NCBI GenBank assembly: GCA_041082215.1
Contig: JBDOIF010000152.1
Coordinates: 1,235 to 65,234 of the forward strand
From: Anaerolineae bacterium
GTDB taxonomy: Bacteria > Chloroflexota > Anaerolineae > B4-G1 > DUEL01
Direction of reading: 5' to 3'
DNA: 64,000 nt
Shown piece after piece: positions 50,856 through 63,279 of this stretch. Below the pieces are notes generated by a model that was not told the origin of the DNA, searched no databases, and saw only the letters and a program-made list of their open reading frames with translations. A program made the position numbers and the translations under genes. The first letter of the stretch is position 1. Every line of letters begins with the position of its first letter.

Positions 50856-51275
50856 CTACAGGCCCAGTTCCTGCTCGATCGGCCCCAGGGCGCGGATGGT
50901 CTCCACGAACTCGGCGGTCACCTGGGCAAACTTGGGGGCCTCCGCCGAGGAGACCCAGTCCAGTCGCAGCCGCTGGGGGTTGATGCCCACGTAGGAAAGC
51001 AGGTTACGCAGCAGGGGCATCCGTTTGGCGGTGCGGTGATTACCGTTGATGTAATGGCAGTCGCCGATGTGGCAGCCCAGCACCAGCACCCCGTCGGCGC
51101 CAGCGCGAAAGGCCCGCAGCACCATTTCCGGCGACACCCGCCCGGAGCACATCACCCGGATGGGCAGGACGTTGGGCGGCGACTTCATCCGCGCGATGCC
51201 CGCGTTATCGGCTCCGGCGTAGGAGCACCAGTTGCACAGAAAAGCGACAATGCGAGGTTGAAAAACTTCGCTCAT
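50856..51275 (-). CDS. mvhD: MvhD/FlxD-type hydrogenase iron-sulfur subunit (HdrA-associated)
   Basis: IVAFLCNWCSYAGAD...VMCSGRVSPEMVLRAF..GADGVLVLGCHIGDCHY. Confidence 0.85.
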   Translation of the reverse strand: MSEVFQPRIVAFLCNWCSYAGADNAGIARMKSPPNVLPIRVMCSGRVSPEMVLRAFRAGADGVLVLGCHIGDCHYINGNHRTAKRMPLLRNLLSYVGINPQRLRLDWVSSAEAPKFAQVTAEFVETIRALGPIEQELGL

Positions 51276-51301
51276 AGCGTACTCCGTATTGCGTATTCCG
51301 T

Positions 51302-51802
51302 TTATGACATGGGCACTTCGCTCAGGAGTTCAGAAAGTTCGGCATCAGGGTCGGTGGTAGAGTAGAGATAGGGCGCGCTACTTTCACACAGTTGTACGAT
51401 ACCGGTGGTTTCCCGCTCCTCAGGAATAATAGAGAGGAGCAGGCGGACAATCTGGGTCAGCAGGTGGAGCCGATGAGCCAGGACAGCCTCTTTCAGGCCA
51501 TGGCGCCCCTCGTAGTACCAGGTTCGGGCCTCGCGGGCGGAGCCCAGGGCGTACTCGTAGAATCGGGCCCGCTCCTTCCCGGACCGGCGGCTGTACCCTT
51601 CGGCGATGTTGGCGGCGATAGAACCCAGGGCCCGATATAACTGGTCGGCCAGGCCGCGCATCCGGGCATCCTCAGCCAGCACCGAAACATCGTGCCAGCC
51701 CAGGTCGGCAGCGAAGAGGGCCAGCCGGTACACCCGCATCTGCCAGAGCGGATCCGCCGTAATCTCCGACGGCACGCTCTGCAACCACTCCTCGTGCGTC
51801 AT
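51302..51802 (-). CDS. Four-helix-bundle protein (TIGR02436 / 23S-rRNA-IVS-protein family)
   Basis: MTHEEWLQS...YRLALFAADL...LGSIAANIAEGYSRRSGKERARFYEYALGSAREARTWYYEG is characteristic of this family; the tracked N-terminal 24 aa are repeat-derived. Confidence 0.7.
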   Translation of the reverse strand: MTHEEWLQSVPSEITADPLWQMRVYRLALFAADLGWHDVSVLAEDARMRGLADQLYRALGSIAANIAEGYSRRSGKERARFYEYALGSAREARTWYYEGRHGLKEAVLAHRLHLLTQIVRLLLSIIPEERETTGIVQLCESSAPYLYSTTDPDAELSELLSEVPMS

Positions 51803-51825
51803 CGCCCACCTCCAACGGAACATGG

Positions 51826-51870
51826 AGTACGGAATACGTGCTGCGTACTGCGTATTCCGTATTCCGTGCT
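51826..51870. repeat. TACGGAA-family palindromic repeat hairpin between the 4HB gene and hdrA
   Basis: ggagtacggaatacgTGCTGCGTACTGcgtattccgtattccgtgctcc. Confidence 0.6.
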
Positions 51871-51877
51871 CCACGCG

Positions 51878-53833
51878 CTACACCCAGACGCCCGCTAAGA
51901 GGCCCTCTATCTGCGCCACAATCTGCTCGTCGGTAAAGTGAAGGCCGGTGATGGCATGGGATGGGCAGGTGGCGACGCAGGTGCCACATCCCTGACACAG
52001 CGCCGGGTTTACCTGCGCTTTCCCTTCCACGCGGGAGATCGCGGAGTAAGGGCAGGCCAGGATGCACTCACCGCACCCCACGCAGGCCTCCCGATCCACC
52101 ACGGCGACGGTGGGCGATATGGTGACCTCGCCCTGGTTGAACAACCGCACCACCTCCAGCGCCGCCGCCCCGGCATGGGCCACCGTGTCGGGGATGTCCC
52201 GTGGCCCCTGGGCACAGCCGGCCAGGAAGACCCCCGCCGTGGCCGTCTCCACCGGCCGCAGTTTGGGGTGCGCTTCGGCAAACCAGCCGTCGGGTGTGCG
52301 GCCCAGGCCGAACAACGGGGCGATGCGGTCCACATCGGGCTGCGGCTCGATGGCCGACTCCAGGATCACCAGGTCCACGTCCACAAACACCAGCCGTCCC
52401 AGGTTGGCATCCTCTCCCTTCACGCGGAGTTTGCCATCCGGCATGACTTCCACCTCGGCTCCCTTGCCCCGGACGAAGACGACTCCCTCCTCCTGCACCC
52501 GCTCGTAGAACTCCTCATAGGCCTTGCCGAAGGCCCGCATATCCATATAGAAATCGTACACCTCGGCTCCGGTCTTATCCCGCACCTGGTGGGCGTGCTT
52601 GAGGGCGTACATGCAACAGATGCGGGAGCAGTAAGGGTGAGCGTTCTCGTCGCGGCTGCCGACGCAATGGATGATGGCCACCCGCTGGGGCTTCTTCCCC
52701 TCGGCGGTGACGATCTCCCCCCCGGTGGGGCCGGTGGCGCTGGTGAGCCGCTCAAACTGTAGCCCGGTGATGATATTGGGCGAGAGGCCGTAGGAATACT
52801 GCGGAAGTTTCGCGGGGTCCCACATCGCAAACCCGGTCGCCACGATGATGGCGCCGACCTGAACTTCGAGCAGTTGATCCTCCTGGGTGTAATCAATCGC
52901 CCCGGTGGGGCAGAACTTCTCGCAGACCTTACACTTGCCCTGGGTAAAGAACCGGCAGTTCTCCCGGTCAATCACCGGGATGTTCGGGATGGCCTGGGCG
53001 AAGGGGCGGTAGATGGCCTTCCGCTTCCCCATCCCCGCCTCGAAGGCTGTATCCACCACTTTGGTGGGGCACTTCTCCTGGCAGAGGCCACAGCCGGTGC
53101 ACTTCTCCTCATCCACCGACCGCGCCCGTTTGCGGATGCGGGCGGTGAAATGGCCCACATAGCCGGAGACCTCTTCAACTTCACTGTAGGTCAGGAGGGT
53201 GATGTTGGGATGCCGACCGGCATCCATCATCTTGGGGCCCAGGATTCAGGTACTACAGTCCAGCGTGGGGAAAGTCTTATCCAACTGGGCCATATGGCCG
53301 CCGATGGATGGCTCCCGTTCCACCAGATAGACCGGGTAGCCCGCGTCAGCGATGGAGAGGGCGGCCTGGATGCCGGCGATGCCGCCGCCCACCACCAGCG
53401 CCGCTTTTGTCACCGGCTCCCGCCGGGGCTCCAGCGGGGCCTGGTATGCCACCCGGAAAACCGCCGACCGCACCAGCCGCTTCGCCTTCTCCGTGGCTGC
53501 CTCTTTATCATCGGTGATCCAGGAGACATGCTCGCGGATGTTGGCCATCTGGAAGAAATAGGGGTTGAGCCCGGCGGCCCCCAGGGCTCGCTGGAAGGTC
53601 GTCTCGTGCATCCGGGGGGTGCAGGACGCCACCACGACCCGGTTCAGGCCCAGGTTGCGGATGTCCTCCTGGATCATCAACTGGCCCGGCTCGGAGCACA
53701 TGTACTTGTACACCCGGGCGACGGCGACGCCAGGCAGTTTAGAAGCCATCTCTGCGACCGCCTCCACATCCACCGTGGCCGAGATATTGATGCCGCATTC
53801 ACAGATGTAGACGCCGATTCGGGGTTGCTCCAT
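51878..53833 (-). CDS. hdrA: Heterodisulfide reductase subunit A, selenocysteine-containing paralog 1; in-frame TGA at 53246..53248
   Basis: Tracked ORFs 53246..53971 and 51878..53230 are in one frame: ...GGGIAGIQAAL...KTFPTLDCST-[TGA]-ILGPKMMDAGRHPNITLLTYSEV..., which aligns with the HdrA consensus KTFPTLDCS-x-C-ILxPKMVEVxRHPNI with TGA at the Cys position. Also an FAD Rossmann motif, four or more ferredoxin Cys clusters, and an N-terminal YICECG. Start set at MEQPRIGVY. Confidence 0.85.
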
Positions 53834-53865
53834 AGCGAGCGCTCCTTCCATTTCGGTCTCAGACA

Positions 53866-55065
53866 TCAGGACTCTGCAGCCTGAATAGACTGCCAGAGCA
53901 GTTCCATTACATCCATTGCCCGCACGCGGATGCGGTTCTGCCGCGCTCCTTCCTGGAGGGTGCGCTTGCACTGCTGGCAGGCGGACGCCAGGATGCTGGC
54001 TCCTGTCGCCTGGATCTGGGCCAGCCGTTTTGCCGCGACGCCCATTGTGACAGCAGGGTCAGCCATCTCTACATCTCCGCCGCCGCCACAGCACAGCGCG
54101 CTCTGGCGAGACATAGACATCTCTCTCAATTCCAGCCCCGGAATGCGGGTCAGTATTTCCCGGGGTGGATCATATACGCCGCTCTTGCGCCCCAGGTCAC
54201 AGGGGTCGTGATAGGTCACCACGCCTTCCACTGGTCCCAATGGCGGGGCGGATTGTGCCATTCGTTCTGCCAGGAACTCGGTAGCATGCTGGAAATGGAG
54301 CCCTCGCACATCCGCCATCTCCGGATACAGGTGGGACCAGGCGTAGTAACAGGACGGACAGGTGAAGACCACCCTTTCCGCGCCCACCCTGCGCACCTGT
54401 TCCAGGTTGTGTCGGGCGATTTCCGCCATCTGATCCCGCAGTCCCGCGACATAGAGCGGGTATCCGCAACACCACTCGTCTCCGCCCAGGGTGGTAAACT
54501 CCACCTCTGCCCGCTCCAGCACTTTGACCGTTGCCTGAGGGATGGAGTACGCGCGCGGGTAGAACGACCCCACGCATCCCACAAAATAAACGACCTCCGC
54601 CGTTCGCCGCAGGGGTTGCACGCCCACCGGTGGGTCGGGCATATTCTGGCTCCATACCAGACGGTTGGCGTTCTCGTCGCCGGAGATGTTGTACTGGCTG
54701 GTGACGGTCTGGCTGACTCGCAGCAGCAGTTGGGGGACTTCCAGGCCCTGGCGCTGGACGTACTCCCGAAGGGCCACCATCGTATCCGTGATCTGGATGC
54801 CCCGGGGGCAACGGACCTGGCAGGACTTACAAACCGTGCAGAGCCAGAAGGTGCGGCTGGTCAATACCTCCGCCGTTAGTCCCAGCTGCACCATTCGCCA
54901 CAACTGACGCGGGGTATAATCCATCGCGTAGGAGGTGGGACAGGAAGCGGAGCATGTGCCGCACTGGATGCAGGAGAGAATCTTTTCCCAGCGGCCGGGG
55001 GTCACCTGCTGAGCAAACGTCCGGTCCGCCTGGGCGAGGTCCAGGATTTCAGGGGGGTTGGTCAT
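53866..55065 (-). CDS. HdrC-HdrB fusion protein (HdrD/GlpC-like; 2x[4Fe-4S] + two CCG domains)
   Basis: N-terminal CIQCGTCSASCP...CTVCKSCQVRCP; C-terminal CCG motifs (DEWCCGYP..., LCCGGGG). Confidence 0.8.
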   Translation of the reverse strand: MTNPPEILDLAQADRTFAQQVTPGRWEKILSCIQCGTCSASCPTSYAMDYTPRQLWRMVQLGLTAEVLTSRTFWLCTVCKSCQVRCPRGIQITDTMVALREYVQRQGLEVPQLLLRVSQTVTSQYNISGDENANRLVWSQNMPDPPVGVQPLRRTAEVVYFVGCVGSFYPRAYSIPQATVKVLERAEVEFTTLGGDEWCCGYPLYVAGLRDQMAEIARHNLEQVRRVGAERVVFTCPSCYYAWSHLYPEMADVRGLHFQHATEFLAERMAQSAPPLGPVEGVVTYHDPCDLGRKSGVYDPPREILTRIPGLELREMSMSRQSALCCGGGGDVEMADPAVTMGVAAKRLAQIQATGASILASACQQCKRTLQEGARQNRIRVRAMDVMELLWQSIQAAES

Positions 55066-55256: not shown

Positions 55257-56522
55257 TTATCCGCCCGCCTGGGGCAAAAAGCGGCGAACGGTGTGCAGAA
55301 GATGGTCCGGGTCTATCGGTTTGCTGATCCAGGCGTCTATCGGGATGTGCAGGGTATCGGGCAGAAGGCCAGCGTACTGGCTGCTATCAATGCTGGAGAC
55401 CATCACCACCGGGATAGGCCGCAGGGCCGGGTCCGCCGCGATTTCCTGGGCGACACCCGCGCCTTCCAGCGGCGTCGCCATCATCACGTCCAGCATGACC
55501 AGGTCCGGCTTCTCCTCCCGCATCATCTTCAACGCCTGCTGCCCGTTGCTGGCGGTCGCGACCTGATACCCCGCTTTGCTGAGAATCCGCCGGGAGAGGT
55601 CCACGAAGTCCGGGTCATCGTCCACCACCAGAATCCTCAGCGCCACTCCTGGCTTGACCTCCACCTTCTTCTTCGGTCGCAGATAGATGAACCAGTAGGC
55701 CAGGCCGACAAAGCCTGCGCCGCCGATGATGTTCCCGATGGTCACCGGCAGCAGATTTCTCAGGAAGAAGCCCCCCCAGGTAAGCGCGGCGAAGTCGGCG
55801 GGCGTCTTGCCGATGGCTTCCCAGAAAGCCGCTGGTGCCCATGACTTGATGAAAAGGCCGATCGGGATGAGGTACATATTGGCGATACTGTGCTCAAACC
55901 CGGCGGCGACAAAGGCAGTAATGGGGAAGATGATGGAGAGGATTTTATCCGTTGTGGACCGGGCCGACGCGCAGAGCCACACCGCCAGGCAGACCAGCGC
56001 ATTACACATAATGCCCAGCGCGGTGGCCTGAAGGAATCCCAGGCTGCATTTCGCGTTGGCGATAGAGAGTGCGTTCAATCCCAGCGCGCCCGAGGCAAAG
56101 GTGTACTGGCTGGTAAGAAACATCACCAGCGCGGTGAAGATAGAACCGATGAAGTTGCCCGCGTAGACAATGGCCCAGTTGCGCAGGAGTTGGACAGTGG
56201 TGACCCGGCGGCTGGCGTAGGCCATCACAATGAGATTGTTGCCGGTGAACAGTTCTGCCCCAGCGACCACGACCGCGATCAGGCCGAGGCAGAAGACCAG
56301 GCCGCCTGCCAGCCGGATCAGTCCATACGGCACACCAGCCGCGCTCAAGCCGGTCGTCACGGTGGTCAGGAAGATACCACCCGTTCCGATAAACGCGCCG
56401 GCCAGAACGGCAAGAGCGAACATCGTCCAGAAATCCAGGTTCGCTTTGGTGACCCCCACCTCTTCCATACGGCTGGCCATTTTCGCCGGTGGGAAGGCAT
56501 CAATTTGCAATTCACTGCTCAT
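55257..56522 (-). CDS. Formate/nitrite transporter (FocA/FNT) fused to a C-terminal response-regulator receiver domain
   Basis: An FNT core (FLTTVTTGLSAAG...LFTGNN...AAGFEHSIANMY) followed by RILVVDDDPDFVDLSRRILSKAGYQVATASNGQQALKMMREEKPDLVMLDVMM..., i.e. a CheY-like REC with the phospho-acceptor Asp context. Confidence 0.75.
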   Translation of the reverse strand: MSSELQIDAFPPAKMASRMEEVGVTKANLDFWTMFALAVLAGAFIGTGGIFLTTVTTGLSAAGVPYGLIRLAGGLVFCLGLIAVVVAGAELFTGNNLIVMAYASRRVTTVQLLRNWAIVYAGNFIGSIFTALVMFLTSQYTFASGALGLNALSIANAKCSLGFLQATALGIMCNALVCLAVWLCASARSTTDKILSIIFPITAFVAAGFEHSIANMYLIPIGLFIKSWAPAAFWEAIGKTPADFAALTWGGFFLRNLLPVTIGNIIGGAGFVGLAYWFIYLRPKKKVEVKPGVALRILVVDDDPDFVDLSRRILSKAGYQVATASNGQQALKMMREEKPDLVMLDVMMATPLEGAGVAQEIAADPALRPIPVVMVSSIDSSQYAGLLPDTLHIPIDAWISKPIDPDHLLHTVRRFLPQAGG

Positions 56523-56590: not shown

Positions 56591-56779
56591 TTATTGTGCC
56601 ACCAGTTCCACCACGTCCATCACCCGGATACGGAGTTTCTCGTGCCGGGCTGCGCCCGCCAGGGTCCGCTTGCACTGATGGCAGTTGGAGAGCAGGATTT
56701 TCGCGCCTGTGACCTGTACCTCACCGATGCGCCGCTGGGGGACCGCTGCGACCAGTTCTTTGCGCCTCTGCGGTGGGTT
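56591..56779 (-). pseudogene. In-frame HdrB C-terminal remnant following the hdrC TGA (deletion scar, or part of a recoded read-through)
   Basis: After the TGA at 56780..56782 the same frame continues NPPQRRKELVAAVPQRRIGEVQVTGAKILLSNCHQCKRTLAGAARHEKLRIRVMDVVELVAQ*, homologous to the C-terminus of the HdrCB fusion (ILASACQQCKRTLQEGARQNRIRVRAMDVMELLWQ). Confidence 0.45.
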
Positions 56780-57160
56780 TCATCCTGTGGCCTTTCCCAG
56801 GACCGCCCGCACCCGCCCGGGTGGGGCCAGCTCCACCGGTTCCAATCCCCACAGCGCGCGCCCTTCATTGACCTCCGGGCCCACACACAGGGCATAGCCA
56901 CAGGCCAGGACATTCTCAAAGGCCTGTCGGTACCCCTCCGGCGCCGACCTTCGGCGGCGTGCTTCCATCATCAACTCGTGGATGTCCACCCCGGCGGGGC
57001 AGGCCTCCTGGCAGCGCCAGCAGGAGGTGCAGAGCCACACATCGTAAACAGGATCACCGGCCAGGAAGGAGACGATGGCGTGCCCTCCCACCGTCTCCAC
57101 CGGGCAGACGGTGACACAGAGGCCACAGCCCAAACACTCGTCCGGTCGGTTCACTGCCAT
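56780..57160 (-). CDS. hdrC: Heterodisulfide reductase subunit C-like ferredoxin
   Basis: CLGCGLCVTVCP...CTSCWRCQEACP. Confidence 0.75.
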   Translation of the reverse strand: MAVNRPDECLGCGLCVTVCPVETVGGHAIVSFLAGDPVYDVWLCTSCWRCQEACPAGVDIHELMMEARRRRSAPEGYRQAFENVLACGYALCVGPEVNEGRALWGLEPVELAPPGRVRAVLGKATG

Positions 57161-58087: not shown

Positions 58088-59128
58088 TTACAGCGCCACC
58101 ACCCGGGCGAAGTCCGCCGGGGTCACGCCGGGGGTCTCGATATGGTACTCGGCATAGAAGCGGGAGATGATCGGCTCCACTTCCTCCAGCCTTGCCCCTA
58201 TCAGTGCGCTTTCCAGATCTGTCAGCCGCTCCGCTGGATAGAAGAAGAAGTCGCCAGAGAGGGAGACACTCTCGATCACTCCTTCTCGCACCTCGGCCGT
58301 GGCGCGGATGAGGCCGCCGGGGGCTTTGTAGGCCCGCTGAACCACCTGGACGCCGGAGCGGATGGTGACGGCACGGCCTTCCTGGGGCCGGCCGTGGCGG
58401 AACAGCCACTCGTCGGTGAGCATCCTCTGCGCCAGCCGGTCCGCCTCCGCCCGCCATTCGGCATCCACCTCCGTCACCACCTCCATCGGCCCCAGCACAT
58501 CGGCGAACCTCTCCGCCAGCAGGTCCCACAGTTCCTCGCGCGGCGGCGCTGTGCCCAGCTCCCTCCGGATAGTGGAGAGATTATCCTGCAGGGTCTTGTA
58601 GACTTTATCGCGGAACTTCTCGTCGGGCACCCGCAGCACCCGTACCATCGTCTCGTAGTCAAAATCCACAATCAGGTTGCCGACGAAGACGATGTAGTCG
58701 CCGATCTCGGCCACGCCGTTGCCGGAAATCTTGCGGCCGTTGGCGATGATGTCGTTGACCGGCTTGTACTCGGCGGGGATGCCCAGAGCCCGGTAGGCGG
58801 CGATGGGGGCCTGGAGAAACTTCTGGTAGAACGCTGCCTTGTCCTTCGGGACCAGCGGGTTATCCTTGTGGATGATTAACTGGTAGAAGAGTTGTTCGCC
58901 ATCCAGATAGACGGCGCCCCCTCCCACCTCTCGCCGGAAGACCGGAATGCCGCGCTCCCGGCAGTAGTCCAGGTCCACCTCCTGCGCGGCGTCCTGGAAG
59001 TAGCCGATGCAGACGTAGGGGGATGCAGGGGAAAGCAGATTCAGCCCCTCCCGCCCGATGCGAGGAAGGGCATGGTAGAGAATTTGGGAGTCCTGCCAGG
59101 GTACGGTCTCGAGGCGGTAGAGTTTCAT
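58088..59128 (-). CDS. lplA: Lipoate-protein ligase A-like (LplA/LipB/BirA catalytic fold + LplA C-terminal domain)
   Basis: MKLYRLETVPWQDSQILYHAL...RREVGGGAVYLDGEQL...K(I)SGNG lysine motif; AGGAGG RBS before the ATG at 59128. The tracked N-terminal 11 aa are rejected. Confidence 0.7.
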   Translation of the reverse strand: MKLYRLETVPWQDSQILYHALPRIGREGLNLLSPASPYVCIGYFQDAAQEVDLDYCRERGIPVFRREVGGGAVYLDGEQLFYQLIIHKDNPLVPKDKAAFYQKFLQAPIAAYRALGIPAEYKPVNDIIANGRKISGNGVAEIGDYIVFVGNLIVDFDYETMVRVLRVPDEKFRDKVYKTLQDNLSTIRRELGTAPPREELWDLLAERFADVLGPMEVVTEVDAEWRAEADRLAQRMLTDEWLFRHGRPQEGRAVTIRSGVQVVQRAYKAPGGLIRATAEVREGVIESVSLSGDFFFYPAERLTDLESALIGARLEEVEPIISRFYAEYHIETPGVTPADFARVVAL

Positions 59129-59149
59129 GAATTCCTCCTGTTTTTGGGT

Positions 59150-59238
59150 GTCGGGCGTCAAACGTCAGGCGTCAAACGTCAAACGTCAAACGTCAGGCGT
59201 CAAACGTCAAACGTCAAACGTCAAACGTCAGGCATCAA
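59150..59238. repeat. Tandem array of about 13 GTCAAAC / GTCAGGC heptamers
   Basis: gtcgggcgtcaaacgtcaggcgtcaaacgtcaaacgtcaaacgtcaggc...gtcaggcatcaacc, between mvhD2 and lplA. Confidence 0.85.
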
Positions 59239-59656
59239 CCGCTGCTCGCATCTCCAGCGGGCCCAGCCGGCGCACCTTTTCGGTGAACTCCCGCACCGTC
59301 TGGGCAAACAGCTCCCCCTCCGAGGAAGAGACCCACTTGACCAGGAATCGCTCCGGCTCGATGCCGGTGAACGCCAGCAGGGCCTTGAGGACCGGCATTC
59401 GGCGGGCGGTGCGGTGGTTGCCGGTGGCGTAGTGGCAGTCGCCGATATGGCAACCCAGCACCATTACCCCATCGGCTCCCTCTTTGAAAGCGCGGATCAC
59501 CAGCTCCGGCGCGACCCGTCCCGAGCAGGGGACGCGGATGATCTTGAGGTTGGGAGGGTACTTCAGCCGGGTCGCCCCGGCCAGGTCCGCTCCGGCATAA
59601 CTGCACCAGTTGCAGAGGAAACCGATGATCTTCGGCTCGTAAGCCTGCTCGCTCAT
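59228..59656 (-). CDS. mvhD: MvhD/FlxD-type iron-sulfur subunit, paralog 2
   Basis: IIGFLCNWCSYAGADLAG...VPCSGRVAPELVIRAF..GADGVMVLGCHIGDCHY. Confidence 0.85.
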   Translation of the reverse strand: MSEQAYEPKIIGFLCNWCSYAGADLAGATRLKYPPNLKIIRVPCSGRVAPELVIRAFKEGADGVMVLGCHIGDCHYATGNHRTARRMPVLKALLAFTGIEPERFLVKWVSSSEGELFAQTVREFTEKVRRLGPLEMRAAVDA

Positions 59657-59665
59657 CCCAGCCTC

Positions 59666-59715
59666 CTACGGAATACGCAGTACGTACTACGTATTGCGTG
59701 TCGCGTATTGCGCCC
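59666..59715. repeat. TACGGAA/TATTGCG-family repeat overlapping the hdrA2 3' end
   Basis: ctacggaatacgcagtacgtactacgtattgcgtgtcgcgtattgcgc; it encodes the last residues (AMRAQYATRNT) of the tracked HdrA2 ORF. Confidence 0.6.
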
Positions 59716-61678
59716 GCATCGCGAAGATCGCCCCCATCATCTCCGAAACCAGTTGCCGGTCGGTGAAGTGACGGAGGGTGATCGCTTTGGAAGGGCAGGC
59801 TCCGGCGCAGGTGCCGCACCCCTTGCAGAGCGCATCGATCACATGGGCGACCCTGCGCTCTTTCAGGTATTCGATGGCCGCGTACGGACAGGACTGGATA
59901 CACTGCCCGCAGCCGGTGCACATCAGCTCGTCCACGAGGGCGGTGGCCGACTCTACCTTCACCTCTCCCTGGCCGATGAGGGAAAGGACCCGCGCCGCCG
60001 CCGCCGAGCCCTGGGCCACCGAGTCCGGGATGTCCTTCGGCCCCTGAGCGCACCCGGCGACGAGCACCCCGTCGGTCATCGTCGCCACCGGGTCCAGCTT
60101 GGGGTGCTTTTCCCTGAACCACCCGTCGGCGTCGGTGCTGATGCCGAAGAGACGGGCCACTTCCCGGCTGTCGTGGCGCGGTTCCAGGCCGATCGCCAGC
60201 ACCACCATATCCACCGGCAGCCGTCGCTGCCGCCCCACCAGGGAATCGTCGAACTGGACGACCAGTTTTCCCTCCTCCTCCGGCCCGCGTGCAGCGTCCG
60301 TCACCTGGGCCACCTTCCCGCGGATGAAGTGGATCCCCTCATCCAGCATCCGGTGGTAGAACTCCTCATATAGCTTGCCGGGGGCGCGAATGTCAATATA
60401 GAAGTTATATACCTCGGCGTGGGTCTTATGGCGGATCAGGTGGGCCAGCTTCAGGGAGTACATACAGCAGACCCGGGAGCAGTATTCGTGGTACTTCTTG
60501 TCCCGGCTGCCCACGCAGTGGATGATGGCCACCTGTCGGGGGACCGTTTCCCCATCCCGCAGGACCACCTTGCCGCCGGTAGGACCAGCCCCGCTGAGCA
60601 TCCGCTCCATCTCCAGGCTGGTGAAGACGTTGGGGAAACGGCCGTAGCCGTACTGGGGAATCCGTCGGGCGTCGAAGGGATCGAAGCCGGTGGCGAGGAT
60701 GATGTTGCCCACCTGGACCTCCAGGATGGTGTCCTGCTGGTTGTAGTCTATGGCGCCGGTGGGGCAGACCTTTTCACAGAGGCGGCAACGGCCTTTGGTA
60801 AACCAGAGGCAGTTGTCGCGGTCAATGACGGGGACGGGGGGCACTGCCTGGGCGAAGGGGCGGTAGACCGCCTTCCGATACCCCAGCCCCGCCTCGTAGG
60901 CGGCGTCAACGACTTTCGTGGGGCACTTTTCCTCACACGTACCGCATCCGGTGCACTTCTCTGCATCCACCGACCGGGCCCGAACGCGGATGCGGACCAC
61001 AAAGTTGCCCACATAGCCGGAGACGCTTTCCACCTCGCTGTAGGTCAGGAGATTGATGTTGGGATGCCGACCGGCATCCATCATTTTGGGCCCGAGAATT
61101 CAGGCACTACAGTCGAGCGTGGGGAAGGTCTCATCCAGTTGAGCCATCCGGCCGCCGATGGAAGGCTCCCGTTCCACCAGATAGACCGGGTAGCCGGCGT
61201 TGGCCAGCTCCAGGGCCGCCTGGATGCCGGTGATCCCCCCGCCGACGACCAGCGTGGCCGGGTTGATGCGCACCCGGTTTTCCTCCAGGGGCTGGTGGTG
61301 GCGCACCCTTAGGACCGCCGCCTCGACCAGGGCTTTTGCCTTCCCGGTGGCGATCTCGGGGTCATCGTGGACCCAGGAACACTGTTCGCGGATGTTGGCC
61401 ATCTCGAAGAAGTAGGGGTTGAGACCTGCCTCTGCCACAGCTCGCTGGAAGGTCGGCTCGTGCATCCGCGGGGTGCAGGAAGCCACCACCACCCGGTCCA
61501 GTCCCAGCTCCTGAATGTCCTTTTTGATCAGCTCCTGGCCCAGGCTGGAACACATGAAGCGGTAGTCGCGGGCCACGGCCACCCCCGGCAGGTCGGCGGC
61601 CCAGCGGGCCACCTCCGCCACGTCTACCACACCGGCGATGTTGGAACCACAGTGGCAGATGTAGACGCCGATCTTCAT
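59687..61678 (-). CDS. hdrA: Heterodisulfide reductase subunit A, selenocysteine-containing paralog 2; in-frame TGA at 61100..61102
   Basis: Tracked ORFs 61100..61708 and 59687..61084 share a frame: ...ETFPTLDCSA-[TGA]-ILGPKMMDAGRHPNINLLTYSEV...; the same architecture as paralog 1 (about 75% identity by eye). Start set at MKIGVY. Confidence 0.85.
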
Positions 61679-61753
61679 CGAGCACCCCCATTTGTAGTTG
61701 TGCGGCACTTCGCTACGCTTCGTGCCTCAATACGAACACCCAACCGTTTGTAG

Positions 61754-62740
61754 TCAGCGACGGAGCGAAGCGGAGTCGCGCTGTACGGCCGCCAGCGGTT
61801 CGGGCATCGGCAGGCCGGTCCGCTCCCGGCGCGGTTTGCGTTCCGCTGTCTCCTCTTCGGGTGGCGGGTTGCGGAACTTCTCCAGCACCCGTTCCGCCGA
61901 CACGATCTCCTGCCCAAAGCCCAGTTTCTCCGGCTCCAATCCGAAGGCCAGGCCCATCATCTGGGTGAAGTAGAGGACCGGGATGTGGAAATCGGTGCCG
62001 AAGTGGGAGTTGACCTGTCCCTGGTAGGCGTCCAGGTTGAGCTGGCACATCGGGCAGGCAGTGACGAGGGCGTCCACCTCCAGCTTGGCCGCGTTGTAGA
62101 GCAGGTAGTGGATCATCCTGTAGGCGGTCTCGGCGTCCAACTGGGTCATATGGCCGCCGCAGCAGTTGGCCCGCAGGGTGTAATCCACCACCTCCGCCCC
62201 CAGCGTCTCCAGCAGCCGCTCCATCCGCGAGGGGTATTCGAAGTTGTCGCGCCCCTCTGGGCGGACAGTGACACAGCCGTAGTAGGCGGCCAGCCGCAGC
62301 CCCCGCAGCGGCGCCTTCACGTGGGCTCCGATCTCCTCCAGGCTGAAATCCTCCACAACCACCTCCAGCGCGTGGCGGGAGTGGACCCGGCCCGGATCAT
62401 AGTGGAGCTTCCCCGCCGCCAGCGCCTCGTTCACCGCCGCTGCCAGCTTGGGATGGGCAAGCATATTCTTGTCGGTCTTCAGCATATTGTAGTAACAGGC
62501 GGAGCAGGGGGCCACCACCTCCTTCAGGTCGGGGGGCACCAGCGCCAGGTTGCGGGCCACCAGCGCGTAAGCGGGGAGCAGGTCGAGGGAAAAGTACTCC
62601 GTTGCCCCGCAGCAGTTCCAATCGGGGATCTCCACCAGCTCGATCCCCAGAACCTCTGCCACGGCGCGGAAAGACTCGTCGTAGGCCGCAGCGTTCCGTT
62701 CCAGCGAACAACCGGGGTAGTAGGCGTACCGTCTCACCAT
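61754..62740 (-). CDS. hdrB: Heterodisulfide reductase subunit B-like, paralog 3
   Basis: MVRRYAYYPGC...NCCGATE and GCV...NCCGGH CCG motifs; start set at the ATG 62740 (GGGAGGTG RBS), and the long tracked upstream extension is rejected. Confidence 0.8.
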   Translation of the reverse strand: MVRRYAYYPGCSLERNAAAYDESFRAVAEVLGIELVEIPDWNCCGATEYFSLDLLPAYALVARNLALVPPDLKEVVAPCSACYYNMLKTDKNMLAHPKLAAAVNEALAAGKLHYDPGRVHSRHALEVVVEDFSLEEIGAHVKAPLRGLRLAAYYGCVTVRPEGRDNFEYPSRMERLLETLGAEVVDYTLRANCCGGHMTQLDAETAYRMIHYLLYNAAKLEVDALVTACPMCQLNLDAYQGQVNSHFGTDFHIPVLYFTQMMGLAFGLEPEKLGFGQEIVSAERVLEKFRNPPPEEETAERKPRRERTGLPMPEPLAAVQRDSASLRR

Positions 62741-63279
62741 GCACCTCCCAGTTCTTTGGCCCTGCGGAGGATAGCGCGCAGTTGGCGGATGCCCTGGATC
62801 CGTTTGGGCGTGAAGGACATCCGGCCCCGGGTCACCATGCCCAGCATCAGGGGGGACATGCGGATGCTCTGGAGGGGATGGTGGCGAAGGTAGTGCCCGG
62901 TCGCCAGACCCAGTTCGAAACTGCGCCCGTAAGTCTCCACCTGCCCCACGAAGGTCTCGGAGAAGCCGGTGATGGAAGCAGTGTAGTAGCCAGCCTGGAT
63001 GGCCAGCCGCTTGAGCTGGTACATAATGTCTGTGATCGGGATCTCCTGGGGGCAGCGGATGGTGCAGTAGTAGCAGGAGACGCAGAACCAGAAGGTGTTG
63101 CTTTTGAGGACCTCCTCCCGCATTCCGGCCAGGATCATTGCGAAGATCTCCCGCGGCGTGTAGTCCATAGCCGGGCCGGAAGGGCACGACCCGCCACAGG
63201 AACCGCACTGAATACAGGCCCTCAGCCGCTCCCCGCCGGGGATCGCCATCACCTCTTCTAGGAAGCTCTTTTCTGCCAT
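62734..63279 (-). CDS. hdrC: Heterodisulfide reductase subunit C-like, paralog 3
   Basis: CIQCGSCGGSCP...CVSCYYCTIRCP; start set at MAEKSF (could be MARRRD at 63324). Confidence 0.75.
   Translation of the reverse strand: MAEKSFLEEVMAIPGGERLRACIQCGSCGGSCPSGPAMDYTPREIFAMILAGMREEVLKSNTFWFCVSCYYCTIRCPQEIPITDIMYQLKRLAIQAGYYTASITGFSETFVGQVETYGRSFELGLATGHYLRHHPLQSIRMSPLMLGMVTRGRMSFTPKRIQGIRQLRAILRRAKELGGAW

What the first reader, a model, noticed from the sequence alone, without database searches (positions are those of the whole stretch)
50856..63279. Formate-linked HdrABC-MvhD supercluster with two Sec-HdrA paralogs, FdhAB, a lipoate ligase and a formate-channel/receiver fusion
On the minus strand, the window ends with hdrC-hdrB-hdrA(Sec)-mvhD | lplA | hdrB-hdrC | FNT-REC | hdrCB-fusion-hdrA(Sec)-[4HB insertion]-mvhD | [TA insertions] | fdhB-like | [TA/GmrSD insertion] | fdhA(Sec) | hypA | mobA. 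This amounts to two complete HdrABC/MvhD electron-bifurcation-type modules beside a cytoplasmic FdhF-type formate dehydrogenase and a formate channel. Such FdhAB-HdrABC-MvhD assemblies are established in hydrogenotrophic methanogens and some syntrophs. Here the organisation is duplicated, it combines discrete HdrB/HdrC with an HdrCB fusion, and it carries a lipoate-protein ligase. That ligase is otherwise a hallmark of sulfur-oxidising sHdr-LbpA systems. Together this suggests an undescribed formate- or C1-driven Hdr complex, possibly acting on a lipoate- or thiol-bound substrate rather than CoM-S-S-CoB.
Basis: partly seen in the sequence, partly recalled or inferred. Interest (0 to 1): 0.8.

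Follow-up and report, generated by a model that had tools for sequence, protein, structure and literature searches.

The report
Formate-linked Hdr cluster tied to lipoate
A Chloroflexi (Thermoflexales-like) genome carries a methanogen-style formate-driven heterodisulfide-reductase gene cluster whose conserved neighbours in relatives (a lipoate ligase and a special GcvH-type lipoyl protein) suggest that protein-bound lipoate, not CoM-S-S-CoB, is the disulfide it works on.

Summary
On the minus strand, 42331-64000 encodes hdrC1-hdrB1-hdrA1(Sec)-mvhD1 | lplA | hdrB2-hdrC2 | focA-REC | hdrCB-hdrA2(Sec)-[4HB]-mvhD2 | [TA genes] | truncated fdhB | [TA, GmrSD] | fdhA(Sec) | hypA | mobA. All are intact, and all three UGA codons have conserved SECIS-like hairpins.

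Both HdrA paralogs are full-length methanogen-type proteins, not sHdr-type. The FdhB-like protein is an FdhB that lacks the FAD/F420 middle part.

The Fdh-MvhD-Hdr module is not new: HdrBCA-MvhD-FdhBA was already described from marine Chloroflexi genomes (PMC5736913). The gene order is widespread in Anaerolineae MAGs.

What looks undescribed is the lipoate link:
- In 26 of 39 LplA-anchored species loci, an Hdr-type gene lies within 10 kb.
- In 17 of 18 GcvH-anchored metagenome loci, a CCG/Hdr-type gene lies within 10 kb, usually next to the carrier gene.
- The carrier is a distinct GcvH clade with the lipoyl-lysine motif ESGKWVGR and without LbpA's cysteines.
- One relative has GcvH, a lipoate-assembly gene set and HdrB2C2 as its only Hdr genes.

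This window has no GcvH. It keeps only lplA, hdrB2C2 and a 55-codon relic.

Best reading: a formate-coupled bifurcating or confurcating Hdr acting on lipoyl-GcvH. This rests on synteny only. It is a new variant of a known kind, of moderately high interest.

The parts
63305..64000 (-). ArsA/GET3-family ATPase gene. Only the 3' part is here; the gene runs off the window end. It precedes hdrC1, as in relatives L004 and L068.
   Evidence: TIGR00345 at 123 bits. tblastn with L004 ArsA gives 76% identity over 226 of 307 aa, reaching base 64000. Same position in L004 and L068.
62734..63279 (-). hdrC1, a 2x[4Fe-4S] HdrC-type subunit of module 1.
   Evidence: Fer4_8/17/9 matches. TIGR03290 at 93 bits, below its cutoff of 160. 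GGAGG ribosome-binding site before the ATG.
61754..62740 (-). hdrB1, with two complete CCG domains (10 Cys).
   Evidence: PF02754 matches in 2 stretches. Full-length match to methanogen HdrB chains 9sfi_C and 5odc_B. The Cys motifs were read in the sequence.
59687..61678 (-). hdrA1, a full-length FAD/Fe-S HdrA with selenocysteine (UGA at 61100-61102).
   Evidence: Matches 5odc_A at 731 bits over residues 2-649. The UGA aligns to Cys197 of 5odc_A. NF040770 at 868 bits, below its cutoff of 1100.
61062..61079 (-). SECIS-like hairpin GGAUGCC-GGUC-GGCAUCC, 20 nt downstream of the hdrA1 UGA (stem at nt 24-41 counted from the U).
   Evidence: Fold. The hairpin is nucleotide-invariant in 19 distinct hdrA sequences, while flanking synonymous sites vary.
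59228..59656 (-). mvhD1, a [2Fe-2S] electron-transfer subunit.
   Evidence: PF02662 at 181 bits. Matches the C-terminal MvhD part (643-775) of NF040770.
59156..59230 (.). A (CGTCAAA) x 10.7 tandem array between mvhD1 and lplA. Relatives L004 and L068 carry gcvH plus an HdrD-type gene at this place.
   Evidence: for the array. for the layout in relatives.
58088..59128 (-). lplA, a two-domain lipoate-protein ligase (catalytic domain plus an LplB-like C-terminal domain).
   Evidence: PF21948 at 138 bits and PF10437. NF053749 LplB at 65.9, just above its cutoff of 65; TIGR00545 at 150, below 280. The GRKISG motif was read in the sequence.
57151..58005 (-). hdrB2, a second discrete HdrB with two CCG domains.
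   Evidence: PF02754 in 2 stretches. Matches 8rvv_B and 5odc_B full-length. 28% identical to HdrB1. Orthologues sit next to lipoate genes in L017, L067 and L068.
56780..57160 (-). hdrC2, a short (126 aa) 2x[4Fe-4S] HdrC-like partner of hdrB2.
   Evidence: Fer4 families. TIGR03290 at 43 bits. The pair is conserved in L017 and L067-L071.
56594..56758 (-). Relic of the last ~55 codons of an HdrCB/HdrD-type gene, in frame after the hdrC2 stop. The gene is intact in L017 and L068.
   Evidence: tblastn gives 67% identity over 55 aa to L004 HdrCB_a. Translation. Intact gene after hdrC2 in L017 and L068.
55257..56522 (-). focA-REC, a formate channel with a C-terminal response-regulator receiver domain.
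   Evidence: TIGR04060 at 302.6, above 290.1. PF01226 and PF00072. At least 120 database clusters above 71% identity all share this architecture.
53866..55065 (-). hdrCB fusion (HdrD-like): an N-terminal 2x[4Fe-4S] part plus two CCG domains. This is the disulfide-reductase subunit of module 2.
   Evidence: CCG at 116 bits plus Fer4_8. The N-terminal part matches HdrC chains and the C-terminal part matches HdrB chains.
51878..53833 (-). hdrA2, a full-length HdrA with selenocysteine (UGA at 53246-53248). It is 61% identical to HdrA1.
   Evidence: NF040770 at 832 bits. In-frame TGA. The TGA is conserved in relatives. Identity.
53208..53225 (-). SECIS-like hairpin of hdrA2, with the same sequence as in hdrA1.
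51302..51874 (-). Inserted four-helix-bundle gene (23S rRNA intervening-sequence protein family), flanked by heptamer arrays. It splits hdrA2 from mvhD2.
   Evidence: PF05635 and TIGR02436. The same insertion is present in L008 and L021 and absent in L002 and L014. Arrays.
50856..51275 (-). mvhD2.
   Evidence: PF02662 at 181 bits. Matches NF040770 positions 647-777.
48930..50819 (-). Inserted toxin-antitoxin genes: Phd/YefM, NTase+HepT, NTase+HEPN.
   Evidence: Pfam. PADLOC gives PDC-S09-like NTase matches. HepT and HEPN are shared with L008 at the same place.
48083..48913 (-). fdhB', an FdhB relative reduced to its Fe-S parts. The ~150-aa FAD/F420 middle part is missing. It is the likely wire from FdhA to MvhD2.
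   Evidence: Matches 9t1s_M (1e-32), 7bkb_E and 8rvu_E. Only residues 37-108 and 160-263 align, to FdhB 54-125 and 278-380. No FrhB/FdhB Pfam domain. Conserved before fdhA in relatives.
45514..48083 (-). Inserted defence/toxin-antitoxin island: DUF4258, a YgiT/MqsA-type zinc finger and GmrSD. The region is low in GC.
   Evidence: GC is 0.54 over 46001-48000, against about 0.64 elsewhere. No counterpart in relatives.
43366..45471 (-). fdhA, the cytoplasmic Mo/W-bisPGD formate dehydrogenase catalytic subunit, with selenocysteine (UGA at 45043-45045). The start may extend to 45513.
   Evidence: TIGR01591 at 876, above 666. CARL-U-HAP motif. The TGA is conserved in 10 sequences.
45012..45032 (-). 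SECIS-like hairpin of fdhA, GGUGGCC-GGUCU-GGCCGCC.
   Evidence: Fold. Compensatory pair changes in L018 and L033.
42978..43319 (-). hypA-type metallochaperone gene, conserved after fdhA in relatives.
   Evidence: TIGR00100 at 99.9, above 88.1. Same position in L002, L004, L014, L018 and L052.
42331..42939 (-). mobA, the molybdenum cofactor guanylyltransferase that matures the cofactor for FdhA.
   Evidence: TIGR02665 at 129 bits and NF011056 at 216 bits, both below their cutoffs. Conserved at the cluster end in relatives.

Best explanation
This is the Thermoflexales/Anaerolineae version of a conserved supercluster for formate-coupled, flavin-based electron bifurcation (or the reverse, confurcation).

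Shown by homology:
- FdhA (Sec, Mo/W-bisPGD) interconverts formate and CO2.
- A truncated, Fe-S-only FdhB' and MvhD2 are the likely wire from FdhA to the FAD of a full-length methanogen-type HdrA2 (Sec).
- HdrA2 is paired with an HdrCB fusion that carries both CCG domains of the disulfide-reducing site.
- A second module (HdrC1-HdrB1-HdrA1-MvhD1) and a free HdrB2C2 pair add two more CCG sites.
- FocA-REC is a formate channel. Its cytoplasmic receiver domain has the conserved aspartates and lysine, so it should be gated or regulated by phosphorylation.

Inferred from conserved synteny:
- The disulfide handled by the CCG subunits is the lipoyl group of a dedicated GcvH-type carrier (the ESGKWVGR clade), charged by the LplA encoded here.
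- Reduced lipoyl-GcvH would be re-oxidised in relatives by a membrane NarI-like/HdrD module. That would make a protein-bound analogue of the CoM-S-S-CoB cycle.
- This window has lost gcvH and that membrane module. It keeps lplA, hdrB2C2 and a relic, so the carrier must be encoded elsewhere in the genome.

Further inferences:
- Module 1 is probably fed by NAD(P)H, through an NfnA-like protein encoded just beyond the window as in L004 and L068.
- The direction of the reaction (formate oxidation or formate production) is open.
For: Homology to the methanogen complex:
- HdrA1 aligns full-length to methanogen HdrA structures, including the Fdh-containing complexes 7bkb and 9t1s.
- Its Sec aligns to Cys197 of 5odc_A.
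- HdrB1 and HdrB2 match HdrB full-length. HdrCB matches HdrC followed by HdrB.
- FdhB' matches only the FdhB chains of Fdh-Hdr complexes, and lacks the middle domain.
- FdhA passes TIGR01591. FocA passes TIGR04060.
- Sec decoding is supported by TGA conservation, by an invariant hairpin amid varying synonymous sites in hdrA, and by compensatory changes in the fdhA hairpin.

Lipoate link:
- 26 of 39 GTDB-species loci anchored on this LplA clade carry Hdr/MvhD/CCG genes within 10 kb. This holds across Anaerolineae and Desulfobacterota.
- 17 of 18 metagenome loci anchored on the GcvH clade have a CCG protein within 10 kb, directly adjacent in most. They include compact GcvH-HdrCB-HdrA-LplA operons.
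- L004, L046 and L068 show the full layout: HdrA-MvhD-GcvH-(NarI-like+HdrD)-LplA-...-HdrCB-HdrA-MvhD-FdhB'-FdhA.
- L067 has GcvH-LplA-Lpl(AB)/DUF116-(LipT-like FAD protein)-rSAM-rSAM-HdrB2-HdrC2, with no other Hdr gene.
- The carrier clade keeps the lipoyl lysine in 33 of 33 sequences. Its motif is ESGKW(V/L)G(R/K), where canonical GcvH has ESVKAASD.

Plausibility (inference): the potentials of formate (about -430 mV), ferredoxin (about -500 mV) and lipoyl (-290 to -325 mV; the latter value is cited in PMC8760232) allow bifurcation close to equilibrium. That would fit a regulated formate channel.
Against: - The window itself has no GcvH-type gene, no gcvT/gcvP and no LipS/LipT genes. Its closest relatives (L002, L008, L014) also lack gcvH within 10 kb.
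- LplA-GcvH pairs of the same clade occur with no Hdr gene nearby (L005, L022). The ligase could therefore be a general one.
- HdrB2C2 pairs also occur away from lipoate genes (L069, L070).
- CCG-domain proteins are not always disulfide reductases. GlcF, GlpC, LutA and SdhE are examples (established knowledge). GlcD/GlcF-like genes sit next to the module in Desulfobacterota.
- All Hdr subunits score below the curated CoB-CoM Hdr cutoffs.
- The whole lipoate argument is synteny. Nothing here tests activity, complex formation or direction.
- The driving force with lipoate is much smaller than with CoM-S-S-CoB.
Confidence: 0.5

Rival explanations
1. This is an ordinary bacterial HdrBCA-MvhD-FdhBA formate complex whose disulfide partner is something else: a DsrC-like protein, a low-molecular-weight thiol, or nothing at all. 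lplA is then a general housekeeping ligase that merely sits in the neighbourhood.
For: - The window has no lipoyl carrier.
- The same LplA/GcvH clade occurs without Hdr genes in L005 and L022.
- HdrB2C2 occurs without lipoate genes in L069 and L070.
- HdrBCA-MvhD-FdhBA clusters were described with no mention of lipoate genes (PMC5736913).
Against: - The adjacency of GcvH, LplA and CCG/Hdr genes recurs in different gene orders and in at least two phyla. Hitch-hiking does not easily explain that.
- The carrier clade has a diverged lipoyl-lysine motif.
- No DsrC, thioredoxin or other candidate substrate gene is present in the cluster.
Confidence: 0.3
2. This is an sHdr-LbpA type sulfur-oxidising system, or its reverse. 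Lipoate would carry sulfane sulfur, as in Hyphomicrobium and Thioalkalivibrio.
For: - A lipoate ligase sits inside an hdr cluster with two HdrB/HdrC sets.
- L031, L066 and L067 relatives carry Lpl(AB), a LipT-like gene and radical-SAM genes that resemble the sHdr-associated lipoate assembly set.
Against: - HdrA here is the 650-aa four-domain type with MvhD. The sHdrA structure 6tjr aligns only to residues 322-567.
- No DsrE, TusA or rhodanese genes are in the cluster.
- The associated carriers lack the two cysteines that define LbpA.
- LplA has two domains.
- The cluster is wired to a formate dehydrogenase and a formate channel.
Confidence: 0.03
3. This is an NAD(P)H- or methylene-THF-linked Hdr: Moorella-type HdrCBA-MvhD-MetVF or Desulfovibrio-type Flox-Hdr. 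The formate genes would be merely adjacent.
For: - Module 1 has no donor gene inside the window.
- In L004 its HdrA carries an NfnB-like insertion, and an NfnA-like gene lies upstream.
- A methyl-THF:corrinoid methyltransferase gene is present 35 kb away, at 7468-8388.
Against: - No metF, metV or flxABCD genes are in the cluster or elsewhere in the window.
- Module 2 is followed by mvhD-fdhB'-fdhA in every relative with enough flank.
- FdhB' is homologous to the FdhB that docks onto MvhD in methanogen complexes.
Confidence: 0.1
4. This is a decaying, non-functional cluster, broken up by selfish-element insertions (4HB, toxin-antitoxin genes, GmrSD, heptamer arrays).
For: - Three insertion blocks split hdrA2 from mvhD2, mvhD2 from fdhB', and fdhB' from fdhA.
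- One hdrCB-type gene is reduced to a relic.
- gcvH and the membrane module are missing.
- A 12-codon repeat insertion sits inside fdhA.
Against: - All catalytic genes are intact and in frame. They have ribosome-binding sites and coding-type GC3.
- The Sec codons and SECIS hairpins are preserved.
- The insertions are on the same strand.
- Part of the insertions is shared with L008, whose flanking genes are still 86-93% identical to the window's. The interrupted layout is therefore old and tolerated.
Confidence: 0.05

Closest known systems
Methanogen formate-dependent Hdr complexes, FdhAB-MvhD-HdrABC (structures 7bkb, 8rvu, 9t1s; HdrABC-MvhAGD 5odc)
   Same: - HdrA has the same four-domain architecture, with Sec at the Cys197 position.
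- HdrB has two CCG domains.
- HdrC, MvhD, a Sec-FdhA and an FdhB relative are all present.
   Different: - The host is a bacterium (Chloroflexota).
- FdhB lacks the FAD/F420 part.
- Module 2 fuses HdrC and HdrB.
- All Hdr subunits score below the curated CoB-CoM Hdr cutoffs.
- There is no Fmd/Fwd partner.
- CoM-S-S-CoB is not expected in this phylum (general knowledge, not tested here).
- Lipoate genes are embedded in the cluster.
HdrBCA-MvhD-FdhBA gene cluster of marine Chloroflexi DscP3/Dsc4 and Desulfobacula toluolica Tol2 (Sewell et al. 2017, PMC5736913)
   Same: Same gene set and order for module 2, including the HdrBC fusion, a Sec-FdhA and an Fe-S-only FdhB. It is likewise predicted only from genomes.
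   Different: That description does not mention lplA, gcvH, the NarI-like/HdrD module, FocA-REC or a second Hdr module. The window adds these, together with mobile-element insertions.
Methanosarcina HdrA2B2C2 (HdrA::MvhD fusion; NCBIfam NF040770; Yan et al. 2017, PMC5296606)
   Same: This is the best-scoring curated family for both HdrA paralogs (868 and 832 bits). Both MvhD proteins align to its C-terminal part.
   Different: - HdrA and MvhD are separate proteins here.
- Even the summed scores stay below the cutoff of 1100.
- The donor there is F420H2. Here it is formate, via FdhA and FdhB'.
sHdr-LbpA sulfur-oxidation system and its lipoate assembly genes (Cao et al. 2018, PMC6067878; Tanabe et al. 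2023, PMC10332631)
   Same: - It is an Hdr-like cluster that travels with a GcvH-homologous lipoyl carrier and a dedicated ligase.
- Some relatives (L031, L066, L067) add Lpl(AB), a LipT-like gene and two radical-SAM genes.
   Different: - HdrA here is long and paired with MvhD, and the cluster is linked to Fdh.
- The carrier lacks LbpA's cysteines and has the ESGKWVGR motif.
- No sulfur transferases are present.
- The ligase has two domains.
GcvH inside the Ehe/HdrA2B2C2 cluster of Culexarchaeia (Kohtz et al. 2022, PMC9723716)
   Same: The same idea was raised there as speculation: that GcvH-bound lipoate could be the disulfide for HdrB in an organism without CoM/CoB.
   Different: - That case is archaeal.
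- It is linked to a membrane [NiFe]-hydrogenase, not to Fdh.
- No ligase is involved.
- No comparative test of the association was made.
HdrED / DsrMK / QmoC-type membrane CCG modules
   Same: Relatives pair a NarI-like membrane protein (sometimes with multihaem cytochrome c) with an HdrD-like CCG protein next to gcvH.
   Different: This module is absent from the window, apart from a 55-codon relic of an HdrCB-type gene. The NarI match is weak (22-24 bits).

Membership tests
Methanogen-type Fdh-MvhD-HdrABC electron-bifurcating complex | Full-length HdrA: N-terminal Fe-S domain, FAD/TrxR-like domain, inserted ferredoxin domain and C-terminal ferredoxin domain. | tested here: met
   HdrA1 residues 2-649 align to 5odc_A residues 5-648 at 731 bits. 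HdrA2 covers NF040770 positions 1-640.
Methanogen-type Fdh-MvhD-HdrABC electron-bifurcating complex | Cys or Sec at the HdrA Cys197 position (DCS-x-C/U-IL-x-PKM). | tested here: met
   The UGA codon aligns to Cys197 of 5odc_A. The TGA is conserved in 19 distinct relatives.
Methanogen-type Fdh-MvhD-HdrABC electron-bifurcating complex | HdrB with two CCG domains (for the non-cubane [4Fe-4S] clusters), plus an HdrC dicluster subunit. | tested here: met
   PF02754 matches in two stretches in each of HdrB1, HdrB2 and HdrCB. They match HdrB and HdrC chains. All ten Cys were read in the sequence.
Methanogen-type Fdh-MvhD-HdrABC electron-bifurcating complex | MvhD subunit and a Sec/Cys FdhA. | tested here: met
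   PF02662 at 181 bits for both MvhD proteins. FdhA scores 876 against TIGR01591, above its cutoff of 666.
Methanogen-type Fdh-MvhD-HdrABC electron-bifurcating complex | FdhB with an F420/FAD-binding FrhB-type domain. | tested here: not met
   Only FdhB regions 54-125 and 278-380 are matched. About 150 aa of the middle are absent, and no FrhB_FdhB Pfam domain is found.
Methanogen-type Fdh-MvhD-HdrABC electron-bifurcating complex | Curated equivalog scores for the CoB-CoM heterodisulfide reductase subunits. | tested here: not met
   - HdrC: 93, below 160.
- HdrB: 181 and 155, below 345.
- HdrA: 654 and 623, below 1400. Against NF040770, 868 and 832, below 1100.
Methanogen-type Fdh-MvhD-HdrABC electron-bifurcating complex | CoM-S-S-CoB as the substrate. 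| not testable with these tools
   Only 64 kb of the genome is available. No CoM or CoB genes were seen in the window.
Chloroflexi/Desulfobacula HdrBCA-MvhD-FdhBA cluster (PMC5736913) | Gene set and order: hdrBC(fusion)-hdrA-mvhD-fdhB(Fe-S)-fdhA(Sec). | tested here: met
   Window 43366-55065 has this order once the inserted genes are set aside. The published description was read.
sHdr-LbpA sulfur-oxidising system | Short sHdrA (~350 aa), without ferredoxin domains and without MvhD. | tested here: not met
   6tjr_A aligns only to HdrA1 residues 322-567. Two mvhD genes are present.
sHdr-LbpA sulfur-oxidising system | LbpA lipoyl carrier with two strictly conserved cysteines, encoded in the cluster. 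| tested here: not met
   There is no GcvH/LbpA gene in the window. Of 33 carriers from relatives, 26 have no Cys and none has the conserved pair. The feature is defined in PMC6067878.
sHdr-LbpA sulfur-oxidising system | DsrE/TusA/rhodanese sulfur transferases in the cluster. | tested here: not met
   None was found among the cluster proteins scanned with Pfam and NCBIfam.
sHdr-LbpA sulfur-oxidising system | Dedicated lipoate assembly genes: single-domain sLplA or sLpl(AB), LipS1, LipS2 and LipT. | tested here: not met
   The window's LplA has two domains. tblastn with the L031 Lpl(AB), LipT-like and radical-SAM proteins finds nothing in the window except LplA itself. Such genes do accompany the homologous module in L031, L066 and L067.
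Moorella-type HdrCBA-MvhD-MetVF | metV and metF adjacent to the hdr genes. | tested here: not met
   No MTHFR-family hit among the cluster proteins or the other window ORFs scanned.
FocA formate channel (FNT family) | FocA equivalog score, plus the pore Thr and His. | tested here: met
   TIGR04060 scores 302.6, above 290.1. The ELFT and FEHSIANM motifs were read in the sequence. The extra C-terminal receiver domain (PF00072, 74.5 bits) is not part of the described family.
Lipoate-protein ligase LplA | LplA/B catalytic domain with the catalytic lysine, plus an accessory C-terminal domain. | tested here: met
   PF21948 at 138 bits and PF10437 at 30 bits. GRKISG motif. NF053749 LplB at 65.9, above 65. 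The TIGR00545 equivalog cutoff is not reached (150, below 280).
Canonical glycine-cleavage H protein (carrier seen in relatives only) | GcvH fold with the lipoyl lysine, the equivalog score, and a gcvT/gcvP context. | tested here: inconclusive
   - The L004 carrier passes the subfamily model NF002270 (133.5, above 117).
- It fails the equivalog TIGR00527 (101.9, below 115.85).
- Its lysine aligns to the lipoyl lysine of 1onl.
- The motif ESGKWVGR differs from ESVKAASD.
- No GCV_T or GDC-P Pfam family appears in any Pfam-annotated neighbourhood.

The most novel reading that the evidence does not exclude
Protein-bound lipoate on a dedicated GcvH paralogue (the ESGKWVGR clade) is the physiological 'heterodisulfide' of many bacterial Hdr systems.

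On this reading, soluble HdrA-MvhD-HdrB/C modules reduce or oxidise it with electron bifurcation. Those modules would be fed by formate through FdhA and FdhB', or by NAD(P)H through Nfn-like parts. A membrane NarI-like/HdrD module would couple the carrier to the quinone pool.

That would give Anaerolineae and some Desulfobacterota a protein-based counterpart of the methanogen CoM-S-S-CoB cycle. Formate traffic would be controlled by a phospho-regulated FocA channel.
Probability: 0.35. Interest if true: 0.85.

Novelty: new variant of a known kind. Interest (0 to 1): 0.6.

Why it matters
HdrABC-MvhD homologues are common in non-methanogenic anaerobes, including acetogens, sulfate reducers, syntrophs and Chloroflexi. 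Their second substrate is a long-standing unknown, because these organisms are not known to make CoM or CoB.

The comparative pattern found here names a concrete, testable candidate: lipoylated GcvH of the ESGKWVGR clade, together with a ligase to charge it.

If this is right, three things would follow:
- It would explain how abundant, mostly uncultured Anaerolineae couple formate to ferredoxin and to the membrane.
- It would extend the role of lipoate beyond 2-oxoacid and glycine metabolism and beyond sHdr sulfur oxidation.
- It would give a second, independent example of a lipoyl protein working with CCG-type Fe-S sites.

If it is wrong, the window is still a well-preserved example of an already reported Chloroflexi Fdh-Hdr cluster. 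In that case it has only ordinary interest.

Tried and rejected
- **Reaching beyond the window failed.** The exact LplA (P0001, on a 103.5-kb NCBI contig) is not in the contig index. MvhD1 is found only on a 1.2-kb Logan contig. I therefore could not check for gcvH, an NfnA-like gene, sel genes or tRNA-Sec elsewhere in the genome.
- **RNA searches gave little.** No tRNA gene was found in the window. Rfam at gathering threshold found only SRP RNA: no SECIS family and no Moco riboswitch.
- **Hairpin energies were not significant.** Folding energies for the three post-UGA stretches had z-scores of -0.4 to -1.0. I relied instead on synonymous-site conservation and compensatory changes.
- **sHdr membership was considered and rejected**. 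MetVF-type and Flox-type Hdr were rejected for lack of partner genes.
- **The idea that HdrB2C2 is always tied to lipoate genes was rejected.** L069 and L070/L071 carry the pair alone.
- **The idea that LplA is Hdr-specific was rejected.** The same clade occurs as a GcvH-LplA pair with no Hdr gene nearby (L005, L022).
- **No labelled HdrA phylogeny was built.** Reference sequences with names could not be brought in. Placement rests on PDB and NCBIfam scores only.
- **Literature searches found no description** of the lipoate-Hdr-Fdh link in Anaerolineae or Desulfobacterota. Subscription-only papers, such as reviews of HdrA modules, were not searchable.

Full report
**What is there**

The window is GC-rich (about 0.64). 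It comes from a Chloroflexota genome of the Anaerolineae/Thermoflexales kind. Its LplA is 100% identical to a protein on a 103.5-kb NCBI contig, and 82-87% identical to proteins of Thermoflexales, Thermoflexus and Anaerolineae MAGs.

On the minus strand the order is:
- arsA-like, cut by the window end
- hdrC1, hdrB1, hdrA1, mvhD1
- lplA
- hdrB2, hdrC2
- a 55-codon relic of an hdrCB-type gene
- focA-REC
- the hdrCB fusion, hdrA2
- a four-helix-bundle gene
- mvhD2
- Phd, NTase/HepT and NTase/HEPN genes
- the fdhB-like gene
- DUF4258, a YgiT-type zinc finger and GmrSD
- fdhA, hypA, mobA

Most genes are preceded by GGAGG-type ribosome-binding sites. The finding's coordinates (50856-63279) run from the mvhD2 stop to the hdrC1 start. 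The Fdh part of the described cluster therefore lies outside them, down to 42331.

**Selenocysteine**

hdrA1, hdrA2 and fdhA each contain one in-frame TGA.
- In HdrA the TGA aligns to Cys197 of the Methanothermococcus HdrA structure 5odc_A.
- In FdhA it sits in the CARL-U-HAP active-site motif.
- The TGA is conserved in 19 distinct hdrA sequences and 10 distinct fdhA sequences from relatives.
- Each TGA is followed by a hairpin with a GGUC-type loop.
- The folding energies alone are not significant. However, the hdrA hairpin (ATGGATGCCGGTCGGCATCC) is invariant while neighbouring synonymous sites vary.
- The fdhA hairpin shows compensatory pair changes in L018 and L033.

Sec decoding is therefore well supported. 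No sel genes or tRNA-Sec lie in the window.

**What kind of Hdr**

- HdrA1 aligns over its whole length to methanogen HdrA structures: 5odc_A at 731 bits, and the Fdh-containing complexes 7bkb and 9t1s at 640-653 bits. The sulfur-oxidiser sHdrA (6tjr) covers only residues 322-567.
- The best curated family for both paralogs is Methanosarcina HdrA2, an HdrA::MvhD fusion. Both MvhD proteins match its C-terminal part. All scores stay under the curated cutoffs.
- HdrB1 and HdrB2 are full-length HdrB homologues with both CCG domains.
- The fusion protein is HdrC followed by HdrB.
- The two HdrA paralogs are 61% identical.

The 276-aa 'fdhB-like' protein matches only the FdhB chains of Fdh-Hdr complexes (9t1s_M, 7bkb_E, 8rvu_E). 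It matches them only at FdhB residues 54-125 and 278-380. About 150 residues in the middle are missing, and no FrhB/FdhB Pfam domain is detected. I read it as an Fe-S-only FdhB that commits FdhA electrons to MvhD and HdrA. That reading is an inference.

**Is it new?**

Not the Fdh-Hdr module. Sewell et al. 2017 (PMC5736913) described an HdrBCA-MvhD-FdhBA cluster in marine Chloroflexi single-cell genomes and in Desulfobacula toluolica, with a Sec-FdhA, an HdrBC fusion and an Fe-S FdhB.

The same order is common in Anaerolineae MAGs: L002/L011, L004, L008, L014, L021, L046 and L047. The other half ('already characterised') is not.

**The lipoate link**

I anchored a scan of one genome per GTDB species on the window's LplA. 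Of the 39 loci returned, 26 carry Hdr, MvhD or CCG genes within 10 kb. They include Desulfatiglandales and Desulfobacteraceae loci as well as Anaerolineae.

Many of these loci also carry a GcvH-family gene. Anchoring independently on that GcvH in metagenome contigs gave 18 loci. Of these, 17 have a CCG protein within 10 kb, directly adjacent in most. Either there is an HdrCB fusion followed by HdrA (compact GcvH-HdrCB-HdrA-LplA operons, L056-L060), or there is a NarI-like membrane protein plus an HdrD-like protein.

Three loci show the complete layout:
- L004: NfnA-like, ArsA, HdrC-HdrB-HdrA, MvhD, GcvH, NarI-like + HdrD, LplA, HdrCB-HdrA, MvhD, FdhB', FdhA, HypA, MobA.
- L068: NfnA-like, ArsA, HdrA, MvhD, GcvH, NarI-like::HdrD fusion, LplA, HdrB2-HdrC2, HdrCB, HdrC-HdrB-HdrA, MvhD. 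The contig ends there.
- L046: cytochrome c/NarI-like, HdrD, GcvH, LplA, FocA-REC, HdrCB-HdrA, MvhD, FdhB', FdhA.

L067 is the most telling. It has S20, GcvH, LplA, an Lpl(AB)/DUF116 protein, a LipT-like FAD protein, two radical-SAM proteins, and then HdrB2-HdrC2, with no other Hdr gene.

The carrier is a distinct clade:
- All 33 non-identical sequences keep the lipoyl lysine. In 32 it sits in the motif ESGKW(V/L)G(R/K); the one outlier (L045, Bacillota) has the canonical ESVKAASD.
- The L004 member passes the GcvH subfamily model but not the equivalog.
- The clade lacks the two cysteines that define LbpA of sHdr systems.
- No gcvT or gcvP gene was seen in any Pfam-annotated neighbourhood.

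**Caveats specific to this window**

- The window has no gcvH.
- Where L004 and L068 carry gcvH and the HdrD module, between mvhD1 and lplA, the window has 99 bp filled by a (CGTCAAA) x 10.7 array.
- After hdrC2, only the last 55 codons of the HdrCB-type gene seen in L017 and L068 remain.
- The nearest relatives (L002, L008, L014) also have mvhD1-lplA adjacent with no gcvH nearby.
- GcvH-LplA pairs of the same clade exist without Hdr neighbours (L005, L022).
- HdrB2C2 pairs exist without lipoate genes (L069, L070).
- CCG proteins can also serve reactions that do not involve disulfides.

The lipoyl-substrate model is therefore an inference from synteny. It is strong across the family and indirect for this genome.

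**Proposed mechanism**

1. Formate crosses the membrane through FocA-REC. The pore Thr and His motifs are present. The receiver has its acidic pocket, phospho-acceptor Asp and Lys. In L047 and L048 the gene is flanked by Cache-type histidine kinases.
2. FdhA oxidises formate or reduces CO2.
3. Electrons pass through the FdhB' Fe-S clusters and MvhD2 to the HdrA2 flavin. One branch reaches ferredoxin. The other runs through the HdrC part to the CCG clusters.
4. The CCG clusters reduce the lipoyl disulfide of the GcvH-type carrier that LplA has charged.

With formate at about -430 mV, ferredoxin at about -500 mV and lipoate at -290 to -325 mV (the latter value is quoted in PMC8760232), the reaction would run near equilibrium. 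Both directions are therefore possible: formate oxidation, or formate production by confurcation during fermentation.

Steps 1-3 rest on homology to solved complexes. Step 4 and the direction are inferred. Module 1 has no donor gene in the window. In L004 and L068 an NfnA-like gene precedes arsA, and in L004 the HdrA carries an NfnB-like insertion. That suggests NAD(P)H as its donor.

**Prior literature on the idea**

- Kohtz et al. 2022 (PMC9723716) speculated that a GcvH in an archaeal Hdr/hydrogenase cluster might supply the disulfide for HdrB.
- Öppinger et al. 2021 (PMC8760232) discussed, and dismissed, GcvH/LpdA as partners of MetVF.
- The Dahl and Cronan work covers the LbpA-sHdr sulfur-oxidation case.
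- I found no description of the GcvH-LplA-Hdr-Fdh association in Anaerolineae or Desulfobacterota. Subscription-only papers were not searchable.

**Insertions**

The operon is interrupted by same-strand selfish or defence genes.
- The four-helix-bundle gene between hdrA2 and mvhD2, and the HepT/HEPN genes between mvhD2 and fdhB', are shared with L008 at 82-86% identity. Relics of them are visible in L014 and L021. These insertions are therefore old.
- The GmrSD block is low in GC and has no counterpart in relatives.
- All catalytic genes remain intact.

**Verdict**

The core module is a known kind that has been reported only from genomes. The embedded lipoate system is an apparently undescribed variant, and it offers a testable answer to what bacterial Hdr complexes reduce. 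Interest is 0.6.

Noticed in passing
window 43318-43360, 43944-43993, 45475-45506, 51278-51303, 51842-51867, 59666-59708; also 27891-27911: Short tandem arrays of the heptamer ATACGCA/ATACGGA give 19 matches to a 14-mer where 0.06 are expected. They sit at gene junctions of the cluster. They flank the inserted four-helix-bundle gene on both sides and abut the GmrSD island. Similar arrays lie next to the same insertion in L008.
   Followed up: partly
window 43944-43993 (inside fdhA): A heptamer array forms an in-frame 12-codon insertion (peptide ...[12 protein letters not shown]...) in FdhA. It is absent from all seven orthologues aligned (L002/L011, L004, L014, L021, L018, L033). The annotated N-terminus of FdhA (MQDTQYGIRNTEYP) and the C-terminus of HdrA1 (YATRNT*) are also encoded by such repeats.
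   Followed up: partly
window 59156-59230: A different heptamer array, (CGTCAAA) x 10.7, fills the mvhD1-lplA spacer. Relatives L004 and L068 carry gcvH plus an HdrD-type gene at exactly this place. It may be a deletion scar.
   Followed up: partly
window 55257-56522; L046-L048: The FocA-receiver fusion is a large, conserved Anaerolineae family. At least 120 database clusters above 71% identity all have PF01226+PF00072. In L047 and L048 it is flanked by Cache-HAMP histidine kinases and hybrid kinases. This points to a phospho-regulated formate channel. I found no description of it, but I did not search the literature for it specifically.
   Followed up: partly
window 42978-43319: A hypA-type nickel metallochaperone gene is conserved directly after fdhA in several relatives (L002, L004, L014, L018, L052). 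No hydrogenase gene lies nearby. Its role next to a molybdo/tungsto-enzyme is unexplained.
   Followed up: no
window 63305-64000; L004 805-1728; L068 2635-3525: An ArsA/GET3-family ATPase gene is conserved just upstream of Hdr module 1. In L004 and L068 it is preceded by an NfnA/PyrK-like flavoprotein gene. It may be a maturation or donor module that lies beyond the window end.
   Followed up: no
L004 3351-6728; L024, L025, L056-L060: Some relatives have an HdrA with a roughly 3-kb NfnB/GltD-like insertion (927-aa C-terminal part in L004). It sits in compact GcvH-HdrCB-HdrA-LplA operons, which looks like an NAD(P)H-linked version of the same system.
   Followed up: partly
L031 3597-15768; L033; L040; L065; L066: Desulfobacterota and other phyla carry GlcD-like, GlcF-like, GcvH (ESGKWLGK), HdrD-like and LplA genes. 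Often an Lpl(AB)/DUF116 gene, a LipT-like gene and two radical-SAM genes follow, together with a multihaem cytochrome c fused to a NarI-like membrane domain. This is a wider family of lipoyl-carrier/CCG modules.
   Followed up: partly
window 45514-47193: A GmrSD-type (DUF262) gene with PADLOC HEC-05 and PDC-M55C matches sits in a low-GC (0.54) block inserted directly against the fdhA start. The closest relatives have no counterpart. It is probably a recently acquired defence gene.
   Followed up: partly
window 7468-10275 and 14123-14386: Elsewhere in the window: a methyl-THF:corrinoid/Fe-S protein methyltransferase domain gene (NF005719 at 287, above 259) next to etfAB genes, and a bacterial large SRP RNA (172 bits). 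Neither is part of the cluster.
   Followed up: no
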